64,000 bases of DNA from an uncultured bacterium. Its GTDB lineage: Bacteria > Patescibacteriota > Microgenomatia > Levybacterales > UBA12049. The stretch's first letter is position 1; each line of letters starts with the position of its first letter. Position numbers and translations under genes: made by a program. Of the stretch, positions 13,090 to 55,962 are shown in pieces. The notes under the pieces are model-generated. The model saw only the letters and a program-made list of their open reading frames with translations, was not told where the DNA came from and did no database searches. Location of the stretch: the NCBI GenBank assembly GCA_963826535.1, contig CAWGXL010000011.1, forward strand, positions 128,809-192,808, in the 5' to 3' direction.

Positions 13090-14562
13090 TTAAGATGACT
13101 TTTTTTGTACTTGGAGATGTTTAGTAAGTATTAAGCGCGCAGTGTCGTCAAGGTCAGAACGTTCTTGTGCCTCTAATAGAATTTCTTTTGATCGTTTAGA
13201 GTCCTCGAGTTGCGATATTGCAAGAATTGCTTCTATTTGAACCTCAGCAGATTTTTCTTCAAGAAGTGTCGTTCTTATAGCCTCAATTGCTTCTTTATTA
13301 CTCATGTAAAACAGCGACGCGACAGCTACTGCTCGAACGTGTTTACTTTCGTCTGTTTTCATTGAATCGATTAAGACTGCCGTAATAGCAGGGTGGGGAT
13401 GTGTCGCTAGCTCTTTAATAGCGGCTACACGTATGGAAACTCTGTTGTTTTTCAAATCTATATACAACTTTGCTAGTTCAGGGACTGATTTTATTTCTGA
13501 TTCTTTGTTGAATTTTTCTGCAACCTTGTTAATAAACTTTTCGATTGAATTCCGTATGTTTTCATCATTATTTTCTTCAATAGTGTTTATTTCTGCCATG
13601 AACTCTTTCAGGGCGGTGCCTCCCAGTGTTAATAGTTCCGAGAAGCCGATATCCAATGGATGGGTTCTTTCCGGCGTATTAAGAATGTTGATATTTTTGC
13701 TTGCGTTTGGAGAAACGATAATAACGCGCATATTTTTCAGTCGATTTGTAATCTGAGCTTTGATATGTAGGTCTCTCAAGCTATTGCCGGCAATGATTAA
13801 GATCTTTGTTTCCCTCAAAACATCACCAAATAAGGAGCTCAGTTGAGAATAAGGATCTCCAAAAATCTCTTTTTCTAGAGTAGGAATAATCATAAGAGGC
13901 TTCAGAACTTGGTCGTTTCTCGTTAAGTGAAAATCATAAGCAGGTAATGAGTATCCACGATCAAGCCGGTGAAATACTTTACCAGTGGCATCTACATACC
14001 AGTTCACAGATCCATGCAATTTTATTATGCGTAGTGCTTCGGCAAAAGTACCCTCCCAATTTGCTACCGTCTGACTACCTTCAGTTTTGAAACCATCAGA
14101 GTAAGGTAGCTTCAGCTGTTCGCTAACATATTCAAGAATTCTATCATAGTTTGTTGTGAAAACGTGCATTGGTGCTACCTTACTTAATTCTAGAATTATC
14201 TTGAACTCTCTTTGAGCTTTTGGTCTGTCAAATCGTTCACATGTGTCCACAATAAAAGCATCAAGGTAGCCCCGGAGCTGACGTGCTGTCTCTAACTTTT
14301 TCTTTATGTGATCTGTTTCAGTTACTCCAAGTAATACCATGCCCTCCGTTCCGGTTGTGATAACTTGTAAATCTGCCAAAAGGGTTTCGAGATCATTATC
14401 TCTTTTGCCACCAGATATTTCTAACTCCTTAAGAAATGCAAAGCATCCCGGATGCCGACTTTCAAGATAATCTCTAAATTGCGCATAGAATCCAGCCATC
14501 ATTGGTACACTATATGGCGACGATGCTCCTGCTCCAAGGAGAAAGGATATTGGATAGGTCAT
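13090..14562 (-). CDS. SIR2_2-family (putative NADase) protein with C-terminal HEAT/PBS-lyase-like repeats
   Basis: 'FLLGAGAS', 'VFTTNYDRILE' and 'KLHGSVNW' are SIR2_2 hallmarks. The C-terminus has repeated 'VR.AA...L' HEAT units. The start overlaps the stop of the upstream ATPase (ATGA). Confidence 0.8.
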   Translation of the reverse strand: MTYPISFLLGAGASSPYSVPMMAGFYAQFRDYLESRHPGCFAFLKELEISGGKRDNDLETLLADLQVITTGTEGMVLLGVTETDHIKKKLETARQLRGYLDAFIVDTCERFDRPKAQREFKIILELSKVAPMHVFTTNYDRILEYVSEQLKLPYSDGFKTEGSQTVANWEGTFAEALRIIKLHGSVNWYVDATGKVFHRLDRGYSLPAYDFHLTRNDQVLKPLMIIPTLEKEIFGDPYSQLSSLFGDVLRETKILIIAGNSLRDLHIKAQITNRLKNMRVIIVSPNASKNINILNTPERTHPLDIGFSELLTLGGTALKEFMAEINTIEENNDENIRNSIEKFINKVAEKFNKESEIKSVPELAKLYIDLKNNRVSIRVAAIKELATHPHPAITAVLIDSMKTDESKHVRAVAVASLFYMSNKEAIEAIRTTLLEEKSAEVQIEAILAISQLEDSKRSKEILLEAQERSDLDDTARLILTKHLQVQKKSS

Positions 14563-16436
14563 TCTTTCCTCTCCTCCTTTTTTATCAGTTCGTCAATCTT
14601 ATTTTTCAAGAATTCCTTCAAGAGAGGACTAGTTGAGAGCTGTGCTTTTTCATGAAGTTCCGGGTCAGTCAGCAACTTTTTGATCTTCCTCTGAGCAGAT
14701 ACAGTCCCATAAGCACTATCAAGATCTAGGTAGACCTGAAGTAATTGTCTTCTGACAGGATTACCTGCTACTTCAGGAATTATTTTCAGAATTTCTTGGA
14801 CTTCTTTGCTCGAAAAATTCATCAATTTTCCTCCTACATCTCTTATGACACGATCAGTGGTGTCTGGAAGATCAACCAGCTTAAACTCCTGTTCAAGTCC
14901 TAATAGCAGACTGAATAATTCGCTTTCCGCTATTGGTTCGAGCATAACTTCTTCCAAAGTTGCTTCATCAACGTGAATCCATCTGTATGAGTTTTTGCTA
15001 CATTCTTGGGATAAAATATCAGCTTCATGAAAGTTGACATTCTGTGTTTGTCCGTTGATCTCTACAGGAAAAGTTCTGTTCTGACATCGAATCACGAGTT
15101 CTCCTCTTAAGAGGAGATGTGCTATTCTTATATCTCTTGTTTGGACAGATTCTGTAATTTGTGCTGAACTGCTGCCTTGTTGAATCGATTGTTGGAATTG
15201 CTTCACTGCTTCTTCCTCTCTTACATAGTATAATCTTTTCGTATCCTTTGCCTTATCGATAATTGCTTTGACTGATAATCTTTTGTCAACTCCCAACTCC
15301 CTTACTCGTATCACTTTGGGTAACAAATTCTCGAGTTTTTGCAGGATATCGTTATCAAGGATTGATTTGGTTTGTCCGTAGTAAAGAATTGCAACATATT
15401 TGTCTATTTGGCCCATATCTACGCCTTTTGGGTCGTCTTCCAACGACTTTTCTATTTCACCAATTTTTTTTCTGACCAGTTGATTATAAAAACTTAGAAG
15501 ACGTTTCCCCAATTCCTGCCACTTATCATCGGGCTGGAATCCATCTCTACTCATCAAGATATTCAGTCCTCCAGGAAGAACGTCAATTTCGCCAATATAT
15601 CCTACTGCATGTTGGGAAATAAGAGTCTTATCATTATCTAATACCAGAAAGCCACCATTGCAAATGGTAAGGCTGCTCTGGATTGTCGCGCCGGCACTCT
15701 CCCATGTGTTATCAAGTGCAAGGAATCCTGATATTACGGAGGAATCTTTCACTTCAATTGCTCCTTCGATATTCGCGCCTTTCCATTTTTCAGTAACCTT
15801 CTTTTTCTCTTGCGTATCTACTTTTTCTATTTCGATAAACGATGCGTGTCTAGCATATTGTTCTACAGCATCAGAAACTTGATTGGCATTCATTGCCCCG
15901 CTAGGCTTCAATAAGAGCTTTACGGAAGTTCCACGGAGAGTGGGAATATCGGTAATTTCCACAAACTTTTCTTTTGGACCCATAACAGCAAATGCGATTC
16001 CAGTTTCTTCCTCCATTTTAGTTTTTACCTCAACTCTGTCAGCAACTCCAAAGCAACTCAAAATCCCGATCCCGAATTTTCCGATTTGGAAGTTTTTATT
16101 TCCAGACTGTTTAAGAAGTGCTTGTATATGAGGGACATCTTGTTTGGATGCTCCGACTGTAGCAAAGCTTTTTTGCAAGGATTCTTTGTTCATTCCTAGA
16201 CCATCATCGGTAATCTCAACCCAGTTTTCAGCAACAGAATAGCGTACTAAAATATTCGGAGAATAAGATGGATACTTGATTTTTTGAAGGCTGCATGCAT
16301 CCTCGGCATTTTGTAAAAGCTCCCGTATTGCAGTATATGCGGATTTATAGAGGTTATTTCCAATCAGGAGATCAAAGACATTATCATGGAGAGTAAAACG
16401 CATATCTTTCATAATATTATGGGAGGCTAGTTTCAT
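14559..16436 (-). CDS. Hsp90/HtpG-like GHKL ATPase (divergent)
   Basis: Bergerat-fold motifs 'IRELLQNAEDA', 'ITDDGLGM' and 'IGKFGIGILSCF'. Further HtpG-like blocks ('GTSVKLLLKP', 'ASFIEIEK', 'LNILMSRD'). 625 aa, about HtpG length. Confidence 0.7.
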   Translation of the reverse strand: MKLASHNIMKDMRFTLHDNVFDLLIGNNLYKSAYTAIRELLQNAEDACSLQKIKYPSYSPNILVRYSVAENWVEITDDGLGMNKESLQKSFATVGASKQDVPHIQALLKQSGNKNFQIGKFGIGILSCFGVADRVEVKTKMEEETGIAFAVMGPKEKFVEITDIPTLRGTSVKLLLKPSGAMNANQVSDAVEQYARHASFIEIEKVDTQEKKKVTEKWKGANIEGAIEVKDSSVISGFLALDNTWESAGATIQSSLTICNGGFLVLDNDKTLISQHAVGYIGEIDVLPGGLNILMSRDGFQPDDKWQELGKRLLSFYNQLVRKKIGEIEKSLEDDPKGVDMGQIDKYVAILYYGQTKSILDNDILQKLENLLPKVIRVRELGVDKRLSVKAIIDKAKDTKRLYYVREEEAVKQFQQSIQQGSSSAQITESVQTRDIRIAHLLLRGELVIRCQNRTFPVEINGQTQNVNFHEADILSQECSKNSYRWIHVDEATLEEVMLEPIAESELFSLLLGLEQEFKLVDLPDTTDRVIRDVGGKLMNFSSKEVQEILKIIPEVAGNPVRRQLLQVYLDLDSAYGTVSAQRKIKKLLTDPELHEKAQLSTSPLLKEFLKNKIDELIKKEERKE

Positions 16437-38696: not shown

Positions 38697-38810
38697 GTTG
38701 TCATTCCCGCGAACGCGGGAATCCAGGAGGTAAAATAATTTTTTACATTTTATCTTTATAAGGAAGAGTTATTTATATCTTCTGGATTCCCCTGTCCAGG
38801 GGAATGACAA
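38697..38810. mobile_element. MITE-like palindromic element, copy 2 (subfamily B)
   Basis: Perfect 11-bp TIRs TTGTCATTCCC / GGGAATGACAA. Each end folds into a perfect hairpin (ATTCCCGCGaaCGCGGGAAT; ATTCCCCTGtcCAGGGGAAT). Shares flanking motif TTTACTCAT.TTA.GCA with copy 4. Confidence 0.55.
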
Positions 38811-38843: not shown

Positions 38844-39755
38844 ATGATTTTTCTTGAAAAATACGAACTCCTGAAAAAATCTATTCCTGTGGCGGCGCTT
38901 GTGCTTGGTAATTCGGTTGACTGTGAATATTCAGATTTTATAACTTTATGTAAGAATTGCTACTATTGTTTTGATGCGTCTTATATAGAAGACAGTATGT
39001 ATGTTGTCCTGGGAGCTTTTAATAAAAATCTTGTGGACTGTCTTGCCATGGCTGACTCTGAGAAATGTTATGGATGCGTAGAGTCTACTAAATGCCACAG
39101 TTCTACTTATTTATTACATTGTAATAATTGTACCGATTGTCATTTTTCATCGTATTTAAATGCTTGCTCTGATTGTTTTGGTTGTGTTGGTCTTAACCAT
39201 AAGAAGTATTGTATCTTCAACAAGCAATACTCCAAAGTAGAATACTTTAAGAAAATAGAAGAGCTGAAAAGTGAGAAACCAGAAAATCTTCTTGAGCAAA
39301 TGCGTAAACTCAAAAAACAAATACCACATCCTGCAACTTATCAATCTAATAGCGAAAATTGTCCGTTTGGAAATTACGTATATAATTCTAATAACTGTTA
39401 TTGGATCTTTAATACATTTTACTTTGAAAATTGCGGATATGCATATTACTCAGCAATTGCAAAGAACTGTTGGGATATGTATTGTTCAGGTGGAAGCAAA
39501 GAAGAAAACGGCATGACTGAAAAATGTTACGAGATGGTTGCTTCAAGGCCAAGTAACTATGAGTGCGCATATCAATTTATATCCCAATACTGTACGAATT
39601 GCTATTATGGCATTGATCTTAGAAATTGCTCCGACTGTTTTGGCTGCGTAGGACTGACCAATAAAAAATACTGTATTTTAAATAACCAATTGACCAAAGA
39701 ACGGTATGAAAATGCTGTTAAAGAAATCAAAAAAGAGCTTGGGTGGAAAGTTTAA
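38844..39755 (+). CDS. cysteine-rich repeat protein (about 32 Cys, internal duplication), paralog 1
   Basis: Repeated CxxC pairs. Each half ends 'NC[ST]DCFGCVGL..KKYCI.N.Q' followed by '...IKKELGW'. 303 aa. Confidence 0.6.
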   Translation: MIFLEKYELLKKSIPVAALVLGNSVDCEYSDFITLCKNCYYCFDASYIEDSMYVVLGAFNKNLVDCLAMADSEKCYGCVESTKCHSSTYLLHCNNCTDCHFSSYLNACSDCFGCVGLNHKKYCIFNKQYSKVEYFKKIEELKSEKPENLLEQMRKLKKQIPHPATYQSNSENCPFGNYVYNSNNCYWIFNTFYFENCGYAYYSAIAKNCWDMYCSGGSKEENGMTEKCYEMVASRPSNYECAYQFISQYCTNCYYGIDLRNCSDCFGCVGLTNKKYCILNNQLTKERYENAVKEIKKELGWKV

Positions 39756-39812
39756 TTTAAAATTTAGAATTTATAATTCAGAATTGTATGGTTGATGATT
39801 TGATTTTTTATT

Positions 39813-40721
39813 ATGACCTTCTTTGATAAATTTGAACTCCTGAAAAAATCCATTCCTGTTCCGGCGGTGACGATTGTAGATACTGTGGATTGTGAATATG
39901 TAGATGGCGTCTATCTAAGCAAAAATTGTTACTTTTGTTTCGTTTGCTTTGATCTTGAAGACGGTGCTTATAACACACTAGGATTCTATTGTAAAAAACT
40001 TGTAGATTGTGACGCAGTGGATGCGTCAGAGAAATGCTATGAAAGCATAAATTCTTCTAAATGTTACAATTCTACATATCTAATAGATTGTAATAGCTGT
40101 ACCGATTGTCATTTTTCAACATTTTTGATTTCTTGCACTGATTGTTTTGGATGTGTTGGATTAACTCATAAAAAATATTGTATCTTTAACAAACAGTTCT
40201 CCAAAGGAGAATACTTTAAGAGTGTAGAAGAATTAAAAAAAGAGAAGCCGGAAAAGATCCTGGCCAAAATGTTTAAACTGAAACAAACCATACCCCATCC
40301 TGCCAGCCAACAGTTTAACAATGAAAATTGTCCATATGGAGATTATATAATTGGCTCAAAGAACATGTATTGGAGTTTTAATAGTTATTATGGTGAAAAC
40401 TCCGGATATACATATGTTACAGGACTTATAAAAAACTGCTGGGATATATTATTGGGAGGGGGAAATCGAACTAAAAAAACTTATTCTGAGCGATGCTATG
40501 AACTTTCGTATTCAAACCATTGTTATAACTCCGCGTTTTTACAAGATTGTTTTGATTGCACCAATTGTTCTTATAATACATACCTAAGAAACTGTTCGGA
40601 TTGTTTTGGTTGTGTCGGGTTAACAAACAAAAAATACTGCATATTTAATAATCAGCTTACAAAAGAGCAGTATGGAAAAACCGTTAAAGTGATAAAAAAA
40701 GAGCTTGGGTGGAATTATTAG
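39813..40721 (+). CDS. cysteine-rich repeat protein, paralog 2 (tandem duplicate of 38844-39755)
   Basis: Same architecture and motifs as paralog 1 ('CTDCFGCVGLTHKKYCIFNKQ', 'CSDCFGCVGLTNKKYCIFNNQLTKEQY...IKKELGWNY'). 302 aa. Confidence 0.6.
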   Translation: MTFFDKFELLKKSIPVPAVTIVDTVDCEYVDGVYLSKNCYFCFVCFDLEDGAYNTLGFYCKKLVDCDAVDASEKCYESINSSKCYNSTYLIDCNSCTDCHFSTFLISCTDCFGCVGLTHKKYCIFNKQFSKGEYFKSVEELKKEKPEKILAKMFKLKQTIPHPASQQFNNENCPYGDYIIGSKNMYWSFNSYYGENSGYTYVTGLIKNCWDILLGGGNRTKKTYSERCYELSYSNHCYNSAFLQDCFDCTNCSYNTYLRNCSDCFGCVGLTNKKYCIFNNQLTKEQYGKTVKVIKKELGWNY

Positions 40722-42113
40722 TTATTAAAATGAGCAGCAAGCAAAAATTACAATCTATTAATCCTTCAAACTATCAAGCTCTAGGAACAGTTGATATTTC
40801 AACAGCTCAAGAGATTGAAGGAAAAGTTAAGCTTGCAAGAAGCGCGCAAAAGAAATGGGCTGATTTGGGTATTGCCAATAGAGTATCGGTTTTGAAAAAT
40901 GCTTTTGAAGATTTTAAAAAACAAAAAGAAATGTTTATTCTATTGCAGTCAAGAGAGATGGGAATGCCCGTTAACGAATCTCTTATTGATTTTAATTCAA
41001 CCATTGATTATGCAAATTGGAATTTTGAAAATGCAGAAAAGTATTTAAGGCCTGAAACCACTTTTGAAAATGAGCGCGAAATCCACCAAGTTTTTCATGA
41101 ACCCATCGGCGTTTCGGCAGCTATTGTTCCTTGGAATTTTCCTTTCGCAAATTTTGTATGGGGCACTCTTCAAAGTTTAATCGCCGGCAATACAGTTGTT
41201 TTCAAACATTCCGAAGGAATGTCCGTTATGTGGAAAATTCATAGATGAGATTTTTACTAAGCACTTACCCAAAGGAGTTTTTAATGAGGTGTATGGAGGC
41301 GGAGAAGTTGGAAATTCACTAGTTAATCAAAACATTAATATGATTGCTTTTACGGGGAGCACTAAGACCGGAAAGAAGATATATGAGATAGCAGGAAAGA
41401 AATTCATAAAAGCAGTAATGGAGTTAGGTGGATCTGCGCCTGGCGTAGTATTTGAGGATGCCGATCTTGATTTAGCTGTTGGGAATATCTGCTTCAATAG
41501 GTTACTTAATCAGGGGCAATGTTGCGATGGGTTAAAACGCCTTATCGTGCATGAAAGTATATTTGATGAAGTTGTGAAAAAAGTTGCTACTACTTTTTCA
41601 GCTAAAAAGGTAGGAAACGCTACAGACAAGCATACTGAAGTCGGCCCACTTGTTGCGAAAAGACAACTTGAATTGCTTATTTCTCAGGTTGAAGACGCAA
41701 AGACAAAAGGCGCAAAAGTGATTACGGGTGGCAATTCACTTGAAGACAAACTAGGCGGCGCGTTTTTTGAGCCAACAGTATTAACAGGTATTACAAACGA
41801 CATGCGGGTCTGGAATGAAGAAGTGTTTGGTCCGGTTTTGCCAATTGTAAAATTTAAAACCGAACAAGAAGCAATTGAGCTTGCCAATCAGACGGTTTAT
41901 GGCTTAGGTTCGTATGTGTTTACAAACGATAAAGATAAAGCAGAGAGAGTAACAAGCGCGATTGAATCCGGCATGGTGAGCGTCAATGGCACAAATTATA
42001 TTATGCCGTTTAATCCATTTGGAGGCTACAAAAATTCCGGAATTGGAAGAGAACATGGTAGATATGGGTTTGACGTAGTGACGCAGATAAAGATTATTGC
42101 TAAAAATAAATAA
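40709..42113 (+). pseudogene. aldehyde dehydrogenase family, interrupted by +1 frameshift near 41215
   Basis: Two overlapping ORFs (40709-41248 and 41196-42113) together span a full ALDH ('GNTVVFKHSE' | 'ECPLCGKF...', catalytic 'GQCCDG', 'ELGGSAP'). One extra base in 'CCGAAGGAATG'. Confidence 0.7.
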
Positions 42114-47356: not shown

Positions 47357-47423
47357 CGTCATTCCTGCGAAAGCAGGAATCTTTTTAATGAAATTTCTGG
47401 ATTCCCGCCTGCGCGGGAATGAC
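47357..47423. mobile_element. MITE-like palindromic element, copy 4 (subfamily B, short)
   Basis: TIRs CGTCATTCC / GGAATGACG. Hairpins ATTCCTGCGaaaGCAGGAAT and ATTCCCGCctgcGCGGGAAT. Same TTTACTCAT.TTA.GCA left flank as copy 2. Confidence 0.5.
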
Positions 47424-53584: not shown

Positions 53585-53624
53585 AAAAAATATTTACACC
53601 CATGAAATTTATATGGTAACCTAT

Positions 53625-53650
53625 TTGGATAACATTTCAAAAAATGCTAC
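53625..53650. repeat. ~35-bp repeated motif, copy 1 (TTGGATAACATTTCAAAAAATGCTAC)
   Basis: Shares the core CATTTCAAAAAATGC (itself an inverted repeat GCATTT/AAATGC) and the left flank CCTATTTGGA with the copies at 54197 and 55836. Confidence 0.45.
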
Positions 53651-53687
53651 TTTTAGAATACATATTAACAGAGTATAATACAGGTAT

Positions 53688-54169: not shown

Positions 54170-54196
54170 AAGCTAATGGGCTTGTGTGGTAGCCTA

Positions 54197-54230
54197 ATTG
54201 GATGGCATTTCAAAAAATGCCAATATCCTC
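54197..54230. repeat. ~35-bp repeated motif, copy 2
   Basis: AATTGGATGGCATTTCAAAAAATGCCAATATCCTC, 28 nt after the hicA stop. Confidence 0.45.
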
Positions 54231-54295
54231 AGGTTCCGTAGGCGTGAAGACTATCACACTCAGGATTTGCAAACACCTAGCTATAAGGTATGGGT

Positions 54296-55756: not shown

Positions 55757-55835
55757 ATTATATCATTATTATTTGTTAATTTGATAAGATAATAAACAAG
55801 GTTGCACATAAATGAGGAAGAGTCCGGTACCCTAT

Positions 55836-55868
55836 TTGACAAACAATTCAAAAAATGCCAATATCCCA
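55836..55868. repeat. ~35-bp repeated motif, copy 3
   Basis: TTTGACAAACAATTCAAAAAATGCCAATATCCC, about 80 bp upstream of the rhuM start on the minus strand. Confidence 0.45.
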
Positions 55869-55962
55869 ATATTCCTTAAATTTCCCATGTGGTATATCTG
55901 TAACCACCTCCCAAACTTATCAATCTAGTATTTTCAGATAGCTTGATTTATAATCAGATTAT

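What the first reader, a model, noticed from the sequence alone, without database searches (positions are those of the whole stretch)
38844..40721. Tandem paralogous cysteine-rich repeat proteins (about 32 Cys each) with internal duplication and a conserved C-terminal 'FGCVGL..KKYCI.N.Q...IKKELGW' module
Two adjacent 302/303-aa ORFs are clearly paralogous. Each contains two copies of a ~150-aa unit dense in CxxC, C-x-D-C and S/T-x-Y spacings, and each unit ends with the same 40-aa tail. This gives four copies of the module in 1.9 kb. There is no convincing signal peptide, so these are probably cytoplasmic Zn- or Fe-S-binding proteins. I cannot place them in a known family from sequence alone. 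The repeat regularity (Cys pairs roughly every 10-12 residues) suggests a solenoid of zinc knuckles. They sit directly after a MITE-like element and before a frameshifted aldehyde dehydrogenase and a methyltransferase, a small accessory patch between serS and the metal locus.
Basis: seen in the sequence. Interest (0 to 1): 0.6.

Follow-up and report, generated by a model that had tools for sequence, protein, structure and literature searches.

The report
Cysteine-ladder beta-solenoid paralog pair
Two adjacent genes encode members of a large, unnamed protein family of the tiny Patescibacteria (CPR bacteria): narrow beta-solenoids whose cysteines mostly line the core rather than bind metal, with variable surfaces, and whose relatives sit beside an unexplained VirD4-like ATPase and a small zinc-finger protein.

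Summary
ORF A (38844-39755, 303 aa) and ORF B (39813-40721, 302 aa) are 59% identical. Each is an internal duplication (37% identity, E 2e-28), and the conserved tail occurs four times. Cys counts are 28 and 26, not about 32.

The "solenoid of zinc knuckles" reading is only partly right. Every solenoid Cys lies on a strict 3-residue phase with a 12-residue super-period. In homologues most are freely replaced by Ser/Val/Leu, so they are core-ladder residues. Only the cap motif CxxCxGC-x8-C/H could bind a metal.

No Pfam, NCBIfam, PADLOC or PDB relative exists. The family is large (3,502 clusters at 50% identity) and found across Patescibacteria. The window's 894-kb genome holds at least 28 paralogs, which vary in two patches.

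Most relatives are about 560 aa, with a LIM-like double zinc finger fused at both ends, in arrays of up to 8-9 copies. Short forms like these usually follow a separate 92-aa zinc-finger gene and a soluble VirD4/HerA-like ATPase.

Best reading, inferred: they are interchangeable binding subunits of that three-part module. The target and function are unknown.

The parts
38844..39755 (+). ORF A, 303 aa, 28 Cys: core-only (short-form) member of the Cys-ladder beta-solenoid family. It consists of two tandem units.
   Evidence: (P0001 is 100% identical)
39813..40721 (+). ORF B, 302 aa, 26 Cys: paralog of ORF A (59% identity) with the same two-unit architecture.
   Evidence: identical to P0034
38901..39053 (+). 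ORF A residues 20-70: hypervariable patch 1. These are the first coils of unit 1 and are acidic (pI about 4).
   Evidence: Entropy among 28 same-genome paralogs is 1.6-2.0 bits here, against 0.4-1.0 in conserved parts.
39054..39233 (+). ORF A residues 71-130: conserved 12-residue coils of unit 1 and the cap motif C108-x2-C111-x-G-C114-x-G-L-x5-Y-C123-I-x-N-x-Q.
   Evidence: AF2 pLDDT for residues 20-110 is above 90.
39234..39425 (+). ORF A residues 131-194: conserved linker and leader of unit 2 (…LKKQIPHPA…ENCPxGNY…). It is modelled with low confidence.
39426..39617 (+). ORF A residues 195-258: hypervariable patch 2, the first coils of unit 2.
39618..39752 (+). ORF A residues 259-303: second cap (C262-x2-C265-x-G-C268…C277-I-L-N-N-Q) and a C-terminal helix ending KKELGW.
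39870..40022 (+). ORF B residues 20-70: hypervariable patch 1.
40023..40202 (+). ORF B residues 71-130: conserved coils and cap 1.
40395..40583 (+). ORF B residues about 195-257: hypervariable patch 2.
40584..40718 (+). ORF B residues about 258-302: cap 2 and C-terminal helix.
38698..38810 (.). Palindromic MITE/REP-like element immediately upstream of ORF A: 38-nt arms, 79% complementary. It is context only, and no link to the genes has been shown.

Best explanation
The two genes encode cytoplasmic members of a large, uncharacterised, Patescibacteria-wide protein family. Each protein is two tandem narrow beta-solenoid units with 12 residues per coil. Every third residue faces inward, and that inward 'ladder' is filled with Cys, Ser or small hydrophobic residues. 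Each unit starts with a short conserved helix and ends in a conserved cap, CxxCxGCxGL-x5-YC(I/V)xNxQ-x2-K-x2-Y. The cap's 3 Cys plus Cys/His may hold one structural Zn. The first coils of each unit are hypervariable between paralogs, so each protein displays two variable surfaces on a constant scaffold. In most relatives this core is fused at both ends to a LIM-like double zinc finger (zf_Tbcl plus zf_Tbcl_2). In short-form lineages the zinc finger is a separate 92-aa gene next to the cores, usually together with a soluble VirD4/TrwB/HerA-type ATPase. My proposal is that the solenoids are interchangeable target-binding (specificity) subunits. A constant zinc-finger adaptor would dock them to the ATPase, which would then act on whatever the variable surface has bound. 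On this view the window's pair are 'satellite' copies that work in trans with the zinc-finger protein encoded elsewhere in the same genome. What is shown: the anatomy, the periodicity, the variability pattern, the gene linkage and the domain fusion. What is inferred: binding, the adaptor role and any action of the ATPase. What is unknown: the target.
For: Family size and lack of annotation:
- 1,758 hits in the 90%-clustered collection and 3,502 clusters at 50% identity.
- No Pfam, NCBIfam, PADLOC or PDB-sequence match.

Solenoid structure:
- AF2 gives pLDDT 77.8 for the whole protein and 89.7 for unit 1, whose DSSP string repeats as 'EEEEEEE--E--'.
- Profile autocorrelation peaks at lag 3 and most strongly at lag 12. 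Over all positions lag 12 scores 0.40, against 0.22-0.30 for other multiples of 3. Using outward positions only, it scores 0.30, against at most 0.16 for other multiples of 3 apart from lag 24 (0.24).
- Cys occur only in the ladder phase, and the middle Cys lie at 173/185/197/209, exactly 12 apart.
- Ladder positions are 64-80% small residues and have lower entropy than outward positions (permutation p 0.003).

Variable surfaces:
- At least 28 paralogs lie on the window's own 894,453-bp contig; P0001 is ORF A and P0034 is ORF B.
- They are 53-80% identical, and the variation is concentrated at residues 20-70 and 195-258.
- There is no concerted evolution: the paralogs interleave with those of related genomes.

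Linkage to the partners:
- The fusion links core and zinc finger (Rosetta-stone argument): 312 of 356 long forms carry two fused zinc-finger modules.
- 18 of 33 short-only loci have a standalone zinc-finger gene and 15 of 33 have the ATPase. The usual orders are ATPase-zf-core(s), or zf-core with a 4-nt overlap and a convergent ATPase.
- The ATPase is present in 25 of 81 long-only loci of at least 8 kb. Roughly 3% would be expected from about 2 copies per genome (PMC12102498).
- At least 14 contig lengths are shared between the core hits and the ATPase hits.

Partner properties:
- The zinc-finger partner is on the window's contig (P0395).
- It is far more conserved than the cores (78-88% against about 45-50%).
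- It matches LIM protein-interaction domains (E 2.4e-6).
- The ATPases lack N-terminal TM helices.
Against: - No experiment bears on function, and binding, docking and ATPase action are all inferred.
- The window itself contains neither the ATPase nor the zinc finger.
- No ATPase from the 894-kb contig appears among the best 120 ATPase hits. The genome with the largest expansion may therefore lack that partner.
- Other orphan pairs exist (L093, L094, L006, L012).
- Many long-form arrays have a TrmB-type regulator but no ATPase within reach, so the ATPase may be only loosely coupled.
- The second half of the AF2 model has only moderate confidence (pLDDT 65-87).
- Hypervariability could reflect relaxed constraint rather than selection for diverse binding.
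Confidence: 0.45

Rival explanations
1. The solenoid proteins are cargo, that is secreted effectors. On this view the VirD4-like ATPase is a true type IV coupling protein, the zinc-finger module is the recruitment signal or adaptor, and the diversified solenoids are delivered through the Patescibacteria T4SS into the host bacterium.
For: - The ATPase matches TrwB_AAD_bind, T4SS-DNA_transf and TraG-D_C.
- Tandem, diversified paralog arrays are typical of effector repertoires.
- Patescibacteria are largely epibionts whose T4SS is essential and has no known substrates (PMC12102498).
- The proteins lack Sec signals, as T4SS substrates do.
Against: - The ATPases have no N-terminal membrane anchor.
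- Only 148 of 5,713 Patescibacteria T4CP homologues lie near virB4, and the t4cp gene was not essential in Ca. S. epibionticum although other T4SS genes were (PMC12102498).
- No T4SS structural gene recurs next to the arrays.
- A rigid, possibly Zn-capped solenoid with zinc fingers at both ends would be a poor substrate for an unfolding-dependent channel (inference).
Confidence: 0.2
2. This is the first reader's view: the proteins are cytoplasmic metal-binding proteins, a solenoid of serial Zn knuckles or Fe-S sites used for metal storage, buffering or redox.
For: - The proteins are 8.6-9.2% Cys, with many CxxC spacings.
- The cap motif CxxCxGC…C is highly conserved, and its last ligand position swaps Cys for His.
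- In most family members one coil carries four inward-facing Cys (positions 105/108/111/114 at 76-98%).
- Phage relatives are almost pure (Cxx)n.
Against: - Most Cys positions are Cys in only 10-65% of 208 homologues and are replaced by Ser, Val, Leu or Ile, which cannot ligate metal.
- Paralogs in the same genome range from 22 to 31 Cys.
- In unit 2 the equivalents of C108 and C111 are Cys in only 45-52% of homologues.
- No ferredoxin, rubredoxin, metallothionein or DnaJ-type profile matches.
- The true zinc-finger partner shows what ligand conservation looks like: 8 of 8 Cys conserved.
Confidence: 0.1
3. The proteins are DNA mimics or nucleic-acid-enzyme decoys, like the pentapeptide-repeat proteins MfpA, Qnr and AlbG. 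The rod-shaped solenoid would imitate DNA to regulate or protect a DNA-handling enzyme, possibly the DNA-translocase-like ATPase itself. Phage copies would then act as anti-defence mimics.
For: - The best, though weak, structural neighbours are MfpA, QnrB1, AlbG and EfsQnr.
- The variable patches are acidic (pI 4.0-4.5), and the phage relatives are acidic overall (pI about 4.4-5.2).
- The partner ATPase carries a coupling-protein DNA-binding domain.
- The phage homologues are small and multi-copy.
Against: - The window proteins are near neutral overall (pI 6.2 and 7.3; paralog range 5.5-8.1).
- TM-scores to pentapeptide-repeat proteins are only 0.1-0.28 with E above 1e-3.
- The coil is 12 residues, not 20, so the rod is much thinner than B-DNA (the comparison with DNA is inference).
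- Hypervariable surfaces are unexpected for mimicry of an invariant ligand.
Confidence: 0.1
4. The copies are a decaying or selfishly amplified gene family with no current cellular role, spread by duplication or by the nearby repeat element.
For: - Four of the 28 same-genome copies are truncated (213-278 aa).
- The pair sits next to a MITE-like element and a frameshifted gene.
- The partner genes are missing locally.
Against: - 24 of 28 copies are full-length, with conserved caps, leaders and ladder phase.
- No pair is more than 80% identical, so there has been no recent burst.
- The family is conserved across many Patescibacteria classes in genomes of about 1 Mb, where dispensable DNA is rare.
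Confidence: 0.05

Closest known systems
Tenebrio molitor-type antifreeze beta-helix (TmAFP, PDB 1EZG; consensus TCTxSxNCxxAx)
   Same: Both have a 12-residue coil, with inward-facing small residues (Cys, Ser, Ala) at every third position of a very narrow solenoid. The consensus and fold of TmAFP are taken from PMC8038014.
   Different: - There is no sequence or Foldseek match: 1EZG is absent from the top 50 hits.
- The window proteins have no TxT ice-binding face and no signal peptide.
- They are cytoplasmic, so the Cys are unlikely to be disulfide-bonded.
- They have two units per chain with a distinctive CxxCxGC…YCIxNxQ cap.
- They occur in bacteria and phages, not beetles.
TmAFP is an analogue of the geometry, not a relative.
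Pentapeptide-repeat proteins (MfpA, Qnr, AlbG; Pfam PF00805)
   Same: These are cytoplasmic bacterial beta-solenoids that act by surface recognition. They are the top structural hits for both models.
   Different: The repeat is 3/12 rather than 5/20. There is no Pfam hit. TM-scores are at most 0.28 and E-values exceed 1e-3. The window proteins are not strongly acidic.
Orphan VirD4-like T4CP homologues of Patescibacteria (PMC12102498)
   Same: The ATPase found next to relatives of the window genes has the same domain make-up (TrwB_AAD_bind, DUF87, TraG-D_C, often DUF8128). It may therefore belong to the population that paper counts as 5,713 T4CP homologues, mostly far from virB4 and possibly 'exapted'.
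   Different: That paper does not describe the Cys-rich solenoid arrays or the zinc-finger gene as neighbours; its text contains no occurrence of 'zinc', and its one occurrence of 'cysteine' refers to VirB1. The window itself has no such ATPase.
LIM and treble-clef double zinc fingers (Pfam zf_Tbcl PF13451, zf_Tbcl_2 PF23477; CRP1 LIM domain)
   Same: The partner module has four invariant CxxC pairs. It matches zf_Tbcl and zf_Tbcl_2 and LIM domains (E 2.4e-6). It is fused to both ends of long family members.
   Different: The window proteins lack this module entirely. Their own cap motif matches no zinc-finger profile.
Small phage (Cxx)n-cap proteins (PHROG 15341 and metagenomic viral ORFs)
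   Same: They share the period-3 Cys tract and the cap 'CxDCFGC…KYxIxNxQxTxEEY'. The BFVD structural hits (a Mimiviridae Cys-rich protein and a Campylobacter phage protein) are of the same type.
   Different: The phage proteins have a single unit of 74-251 aa. They are far richer in Cys (15-26%) and acidic, and their repeats are nearly perfect. Their function is also unknown.

Membership tests
Pentapeptide-repeat proteins (PF00805) | Tandem A(D/N)LXX pentapeptides recognised by the Pfam profile | tested here: not met
   No Pfam hit at E up to 1.
Pentapeptide-repeat proteins (PF00805) | Period of 5 residues per face and 20 per coil | tested here: not met
   Autocorrelation peaks at lags 3 and 12 only. 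Cys phase is strictly modulo 3.
Pentapeptide-repeat proteins (PF00805) | Structural superposition on MfpA or Qnr | tested here: inconclusive
   These are the top Foldseek hits, but E is 4e-3 to 7e-3 and TM-scores are 0.1-0.28.
TmAFP-type antifreeze beta-helix | 12-residue coil with small inward residues every third position | tested here: met
   Lag-12 peak, a 12-periodic DSSP string in the unit-1 model, and Cys at 173/185/197/209. The TmAFP consensus is taken from PMC8038014.
TmAFP-type antifreeze beta-helix | TCT/TxT ice-binding face, secretion signal and detectable similarity to 1EZG | tested here: not met
   No TxT ladder is visible in the sequence. There is no signal peptide. 1EZG is not among the top 50 PDB hits, and the PDB sequence search found no hit.
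Zinc-ribbon, treble-clef and DnaJ CxxCxGxG zinc fingers | Match to a zinc-finger profile | tested here: not met
   No Pfam or NCBIfam zinc-finger family hits ORF A or ORF B.
Zinc-ribbon, treble-clef and DnaJ CxxCxGxG zinc fingers | Invariant four-ligand Cys/His sets | tested here: inconclusive
   Only the cap sets qualify in part: C108/C111/C114 are above 90% and C123 is Cys, His or Tyr; in unit 2 only C268/C277 are above 85%. All other Cys are variable.
Fe-S ferredoxin-type or metallothionein-type multi-metal proteins | Conserved cluster-binding motifs (CxxCxxCxxxCP) or conserved Cys throughout | tested here: not met
   There is no such motif and no profile hit. Cys occupancy is 10-65% at most positions. 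Paralogs carry 22-31 Cys.
Fe-S ferredoxin-type or metallothionein-type multi-metal proteins | Actual metal content | not testable with these tools
   This needs ICP-MS or spectroscopy on purified protein.
Secreted Cys-rich surface-antigen families (VSP, furin-like, TNFR-type repeats) | Signal peptide or TM anchor, and a profile match | tested here: not met
   Maximum KD19 hydropathy is 1.2-1.3. The N-terminus is internal in long forms. There are no Pfam hits.
Known anti-phage defence systems (PADLOC) | Match of the protein to a defence-system model | tested here: not met
   The cores and the long form give no hit. The partner ATPase shows only generic similarity to mad8 and HerA P-loops.
Diversity-generating retroelement targets | A template repeat matching the variable region, and a nearby reverse transcriptase | tested here: not met
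   The only direct repeats that match the ORFs lie within the pair itself. The larger ORFs scanned with Pfam include no reverse transcriptase. Only this window was tested, not the whole genome.
ATPase + zinc-finger + Cys-ladder solenoid module (defined here) | Core with two 12-residue-coil units and CxxCxGC…YCIxNxQ caps | tested here: met
ATPase + zinc-finger + Cys-ladder solenoid module (defined here) | Adjacent or fused zf_Tbcl/zf_Tbcl_2 module | tested here: not met
   It is absent from the window. It is present elsewhere on the same contig (P0395).
ATPase + zinc-finger + Cys-ladder solenoid module (defined here) | Linked VirD4/HerA-like ATPase | tested here: not met
   It is absent from the window. 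No hit from the 894,453-bp contig appears among the best 120 ATPase hits, which does not prove absence.

The most novel reading that the evidence does not exclude
Patescibacteria carry a previously undescribed, phylum-wide recognition system. A constant LIM-like zinc-finger adaptor and a soluble, exapted VirD4-like motor would use a genome-encoded repertoire of hypervariable Cys-ladder solenoids (28 or more in this 0.89-Mb genome). These would recognise many different host or phage molecules, and phages would carry (Cxx)n-cap mimics as countermeasures. If so, this would explain the thousands of orphan T4CP genes in these bacteria and would be a new type of variable-receptor family in prokaryotes.
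Probability: 0.2. Interest if true: 0.85.

Novelty: new variant of a known kind. Interest (0 to 1): 0.66.

Why it matters
Patescibacteria make up a large share of bacterial diversity, have genomes of about 1 Mb, and are full of genes of unknown function. This family takes up roughly 2.8% of the window's genome, an estimate from at least 28 copies of about 0.9 kb in 894 kb. It also forms arrays of up to 8-9 genes in other lineages, yet it has no Pfam, NCBIfam or PDB relative.

Its consistent linkage to a soluble VirD4-like ATPase gives a concrete, testable partner set for the thousands of 'orphan' coupling-protein homologues. A recent survey could only suggest those had been exapted for some other function (PMC12102498).

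Structurally, this is a cytoplasmic 12-residue-coil solenoid with a Cys/Ser ladder. That geometry is otherwise known to me only from disulfide-bonded insect antifreeze proteins. The finding also carries a practical warning: dense, regularly spaced CxxC motifs do not by themselves indicate metal sites.

Tried and rejected
Family and structure searches on ORF A and ORF B:
- Pfam, NCBIfam and PADLOC gave no hits, and PHROGs gave only phrog_15341, which has unknown function.
- The PDB sequence search found nothing at E up to 10.
- Foldseek against the PDB, with the full model and with unit 1, gave only weak generic beta-solenoid hits.

Looking for the rest of the window's genome:
- The look-up of encoding contigs for P0001, P0002, P0280 and P0395 returned 'not on record'.
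- I therefore could not map the other paralogs or look for the ATPase on the 894-kb contig.

Searches within the window:
- tblastn with ATPase, zinc-finger and long-form terminal queries found nothing.
- The promoter and terminator scan was no better than shuffled sequence.
- There is no DGR-like template repeat.

Literature:
- Six searches found no description of the family, of zf_Tbcl or of DUF8128.

Ideas considered and rejected:
- Serial zinc knuckles or Fe-S sites, because the Cys are not conserved.
- A secreted surface antigen, because there is no signal peptide and long forms have zinc-finger termini.
- A recent duplication burst or concerted evolution, because no pair exceeds 80% identity and paralogs interleave across genomes.
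- Membership of the pentapeptide-repeat family, because the period is wrong.
- I did not attempt dN/dS for A against B, because at 59% amino-acid identity the synonymous sites would be saturated.
Full report
**1. Checking the observation**

- They are 59% identical over their whole length (E 4e-122).
- The two halves of ORF A align at 37% identity (E 2e-28). This alignment includes a short leader, 'EKYELLKKSIPVAAL' against 'EQMRKLKKQIPHPAT'.
- The repeat finder independently recovers four in-register copies of the 105-nt tail module.
- Cys counts are 28 and 26, not about 32.
- There is no hydrophobic segment that could be a signal peptide or TM helix.
- The neighbours are as described: serS, an aldehyde dehydrogenase split into two ORFs, and a methyltransferase. 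A 38-nt inverted-repeat element lies upstream.

**2. What the cysteines are doing**

In ORF A all 15 Cys of the N-terminal half sit at positions divisible by 3. All 7 Cys of the C-terminal solenoid sit in a single phase. The four Cys in between lie at 173, 185, 197 and 209, exactly 12 residues apart. Across the 28 paralogs of the same genome, Cys never occurs in the other two phases of the solenoid regions.

In an HMM-guided alignment of 208 homologues, most of these positions are Cys in only 10-65% of sequences and otherwise Ser, Val, Leu, Ile or Ala. Only C108, C111, C114 and C268 exceed 90% (C277 85%). C123 is Cys in 51%, His in 18% and Tyr in 15%.

Column-profile autocorrelation shows period 3 plus a distinct maximum at lag 12. 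This holds even when only the outward-facing positions are used: 0.30 at lag 12 and 0.24 at lag 24, against at most 0.16 at other multiples of 3.

AlphaFold2 models agree with this. The whole protein gives pLDDT 77.8, with residues 20-110 above 90. Unit 1 alone gives pLDDT 89.7, and its DSSP string repeats as 'EEEEEEE--E--'.

Ladder positions are 64-80% small residues and are significantly less variable than outward positions (permutation p 0.003).

My reading is a very narrow beta-solenoid with 12 residues per coil and four inward-facing positions per coil, filled by Cys or Ser. The Cys are mainly packing residues. The only plausible metal site is the cap, CxxCxGC-x8-(C/H), one per unit.

The partner zinc-finger protein provides an internal control. 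All eight of its Cys are invariant or more than 90% conserved.

**3. Relation to known proteins**

- Pfam, NCBIfam and PADLOC give nothing.
- PHROGs gives only a family of unknown function.
- The PDB sequence search gives nothing at E up to 10.
- Foldseek against the PDB returns only generic beta-solenoids. Pentapeptide-repeat proteins (MfpA, Qnr, AlbG) come first, but with E above 1e-3 and TM-scores of 0.1-0.28.

**4. The family**

The family is large: 1,758 hits in the 90%-clustered collection and 3,502 clusters at 50% identity. It occurs across Patescibacteria, including Microgenomates (Beckwithbacteria, Levybacteria), Peregrinibacteria and Peribacteria, Gracilibacteria, Parcubacteria lineages and Saccharibacteria. 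The sources name its members only as 'hypothetical protein'.

I took a census of 160 non-viral loci, combining the 80 GTDB genome loci, the 80 metagenome loci and the loci fetched by protein.
- It found 417 family genes.
- 356 are a long form of about 560 aa, and 312 of these carry the same roughly 75-aa double zinc-finger module at both ends.
- 58 are core-only genes like those in the window.
- Long forms stand in same-strand tandem arrays of up to 8-9 genes, often with overlapping stop and start codons.

**5. Linked genes**

Three neighbours recur.
- The first is a standalone 92-aa protein made of zf_Tbcl plus zf_Tbcl_2. It is the same module that is fused in the long form (long-form HMM scores of 76-82 bits). 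It is present in 18 of 33 loci that contain only short forms, usually immediately upstream of a core and often overlapping it by 4 nt.
- The second is a 750-770-aa ATPase with DUF8128, DUF87/HerA, TrwB_AAD_bind and TraG-D_C domains. It is present in 15 of 33 short-only loci and in 25 of 81 long-only loci of at least 8 kb. Roughly 3% would be expected from about two copies per genome (5,713 in 2,918 genomes; PMC12102498).
- The third is a divergently transcribed TrmB-type regulator, mainly in Peribacteria-type arrays.

Typical gene orders are ATPase-zf-core-core(-core) (L090, L091, L096, L097; L092 has the same genes in the order ATPase-core-zf-core) and zf-core followed by a convergent ATPase (L099, L105-L109).

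At least 14 contig lengths are shared between the best core hits and the best ATPase hits. The ATPases have no N-terminal TM helices, so they are not classical membrane-anchored coupling proteins. A few have a weak C-terminal zf_Tbcl_2-like match. The zinc-finger profile matches LIM domains, which are protein-interaction modules (CRP1, E 2.4e-6).

The literature survey of Patescibacteria T4SS notes that most VirD4-like genes lie far from virB4 and may have been exapted. It does not mention these neighbours. Six literature searches found no description of the family.

**6. The window's own genome**

P0001 is ORF A and P0034 is ORF B. Both come from a contig of 894,453 bp, and 26 further hits come from a contig of the same length. 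So this genome carries at least 28 copies, 24 of them full-length. By my arithmetic that is roughly 25 kb, or 2.8% of the contig.
- The copies are 53-80% identical (median 61%).
- Their differences are concentrated in residues 20-70 and 195-258, the first coils of each unit. The leader, the last coils, the caps and the linker are conserved.
- No pair exceeds 80% identity, and the paralogs interleave with those of three related genomes. This is an old, maintained birth-and-death repertoire, not a recent burst.
- The zinc-finger partner is on the same contig (P0395, 78% identical to the L091 protein), but it is not in this window.
- No ATPase from that contig appears among the best 120 ATPase hits, although a related 494-kb contig has one. 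The window has neither partner.

The window pair is therefore an 'orphan' tandem pair, like L093 and L094 (its closest metagenomic relatives), L006 and L012.

**7. Viral relatives**

Nine viral contigs encode small proteins of 74-251 aa. Each consists of an N-terminal helix, an almost perfect (Cys-x-x)n tract and the same cap, '…CxDCFGC…KYxIxNxQxTxEEY'. One 108-kb contig has four such ORFs within 5 kb. They have no Pfam family.

BFVD structural hits are of the same kind: a Mimiviridae Cys-rich protein (E 6e-8) and a Campylobacter phage protein (rmsd 2.7 Å over 65 residues). The window's unit is thus a degenerate (Cxx)n solenoid plus a conserved cap.

**8. How it most likely works**

Shown:
- the solenoid periodicity and the ladder;
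- two variable patches on a constant scaffold;
- fusion or adjacency with a conserved LIM-like zinc finger;
- frequent linkage to a soluble VirD4/HerA-like ATPase;
- a cytoplasmic location.

Inferred:
- The solenoids are interchangeable binding subunits.
- The zinc finger is a constant adaptor. It is far more conserved than the cores and is shared by several cores in an operon.
- The ATPase acts on what the solenoid binds.

The target is unknown. I put 0.45 on this package. The structural part is much firmer (about 0.8) than the functional part.

Rival explanations:
- T4SS cargo or effectors (0.2). This is weakened by the ATPase having no membrane anchor and lying far from virB4.
This is contradicted by the poor conservation of the Cys.
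- DNA mimicry like pentapeptide-repeat proteins (0.1). The window proteins have neutral pI and the rod is too thin.
- Non-functional amplification (0.05). This is contradicted by the conservation across the phylum.

**9. Novelty and verdict**

The pair is real and belongs to a large family with no characterised relative. The fold class (beta-solenoid) and the general theme of variable repeat-protein repertoires are known. The Cys-ladder 12-residue coil in a cytoplasmic protein, the cap motif and the ATPase-zinc finger-solenoid module are not described in anything I could search.

I rate it a new variant of a known kind, with interest 0.66. Function remains unproven. In this window the genes stand apart from their usual partners.

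Noticed in passing
window 38698-38810 and 47399-47423 (-): A small palindromic MITE/REP-like element (38-nt arms, 79% complementary) lies just upstream of ORF A. A second, partial copy about 8.6 kb away shares 'GTCATTCCCGCG.A.GCGGGAATCCAG' and the flank 'TGCGTAACATGAG'.
   Followed up: partly
window 40709-41248 and 41196-42113 (+): An aldehyde dehydrogenase is split into two overlapping ORFs (Pfam Aldedh positions 4-167 and 164-461), which implies a frameshift near 41196-41248. Its GTG start overlaps the end of ORF B by 13 nt. I did not determine whether this is a pseudogene or a sequencing error.
   Followed up: partly
window 13090-14562 (-) and 14559-16436 (-): A SIR2_2 + HEAT-repeat protein and a GHKL-type (HATPase_c_3) protein overlap by 4 nt. 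This looks like a two-gene defence-type pair.
   Followed up: no
window 53615-53667, 54188-54240, 55826-55878: There are three copies of a 53-nt direct repeat (66-75% identical to the reference copy) in the low-GC right part of the window. They are unexplained (family D4).
   Followed up: no
P0395 and alignment A5 (for example L091 9621-9899): The 92-aa bacterial zinc-finger partner, with four conserved CxxC pairs, matches eukaryotic LIM domains (CRP1 1b8t, E 2.4e-6; 1ctl, E 1.4e-5). It is a LIM-like double zinc finger in Patescibacteria.
   Followed up: partly
L086 4433-9130; L081 4962-5717: Viral contigs carry multi-copy small (Cxx)n-cap proteins. One 108-kb contig has four such ORFs within 5 kb, and another contig has a 251-aa protein with 65 Cys (26%).
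   Followed up: partly
L092 5964-6510: A BrnT/BrnA toxin-antitoxin pair is inserted inside the ATPase-core-zf-core operon.
   Followed up: no
L001, L002, L011 (GTDB record CAZJRC01…): A bin labelled 'uncultured Gammaproteobacteria bacterium' carries the closest GTDB relatives (55-60% identity) and the Patescibacteria-type ATPase-zf-core operon. The taxonomic label is probably wrong.
   Followed up: no
L098 10009-13503: An unusually long ATPase homologue (ORF of 1164 aa) lies downstream of a core-zf-core cluster. I did not examine its extra domains.
   Followed up: no
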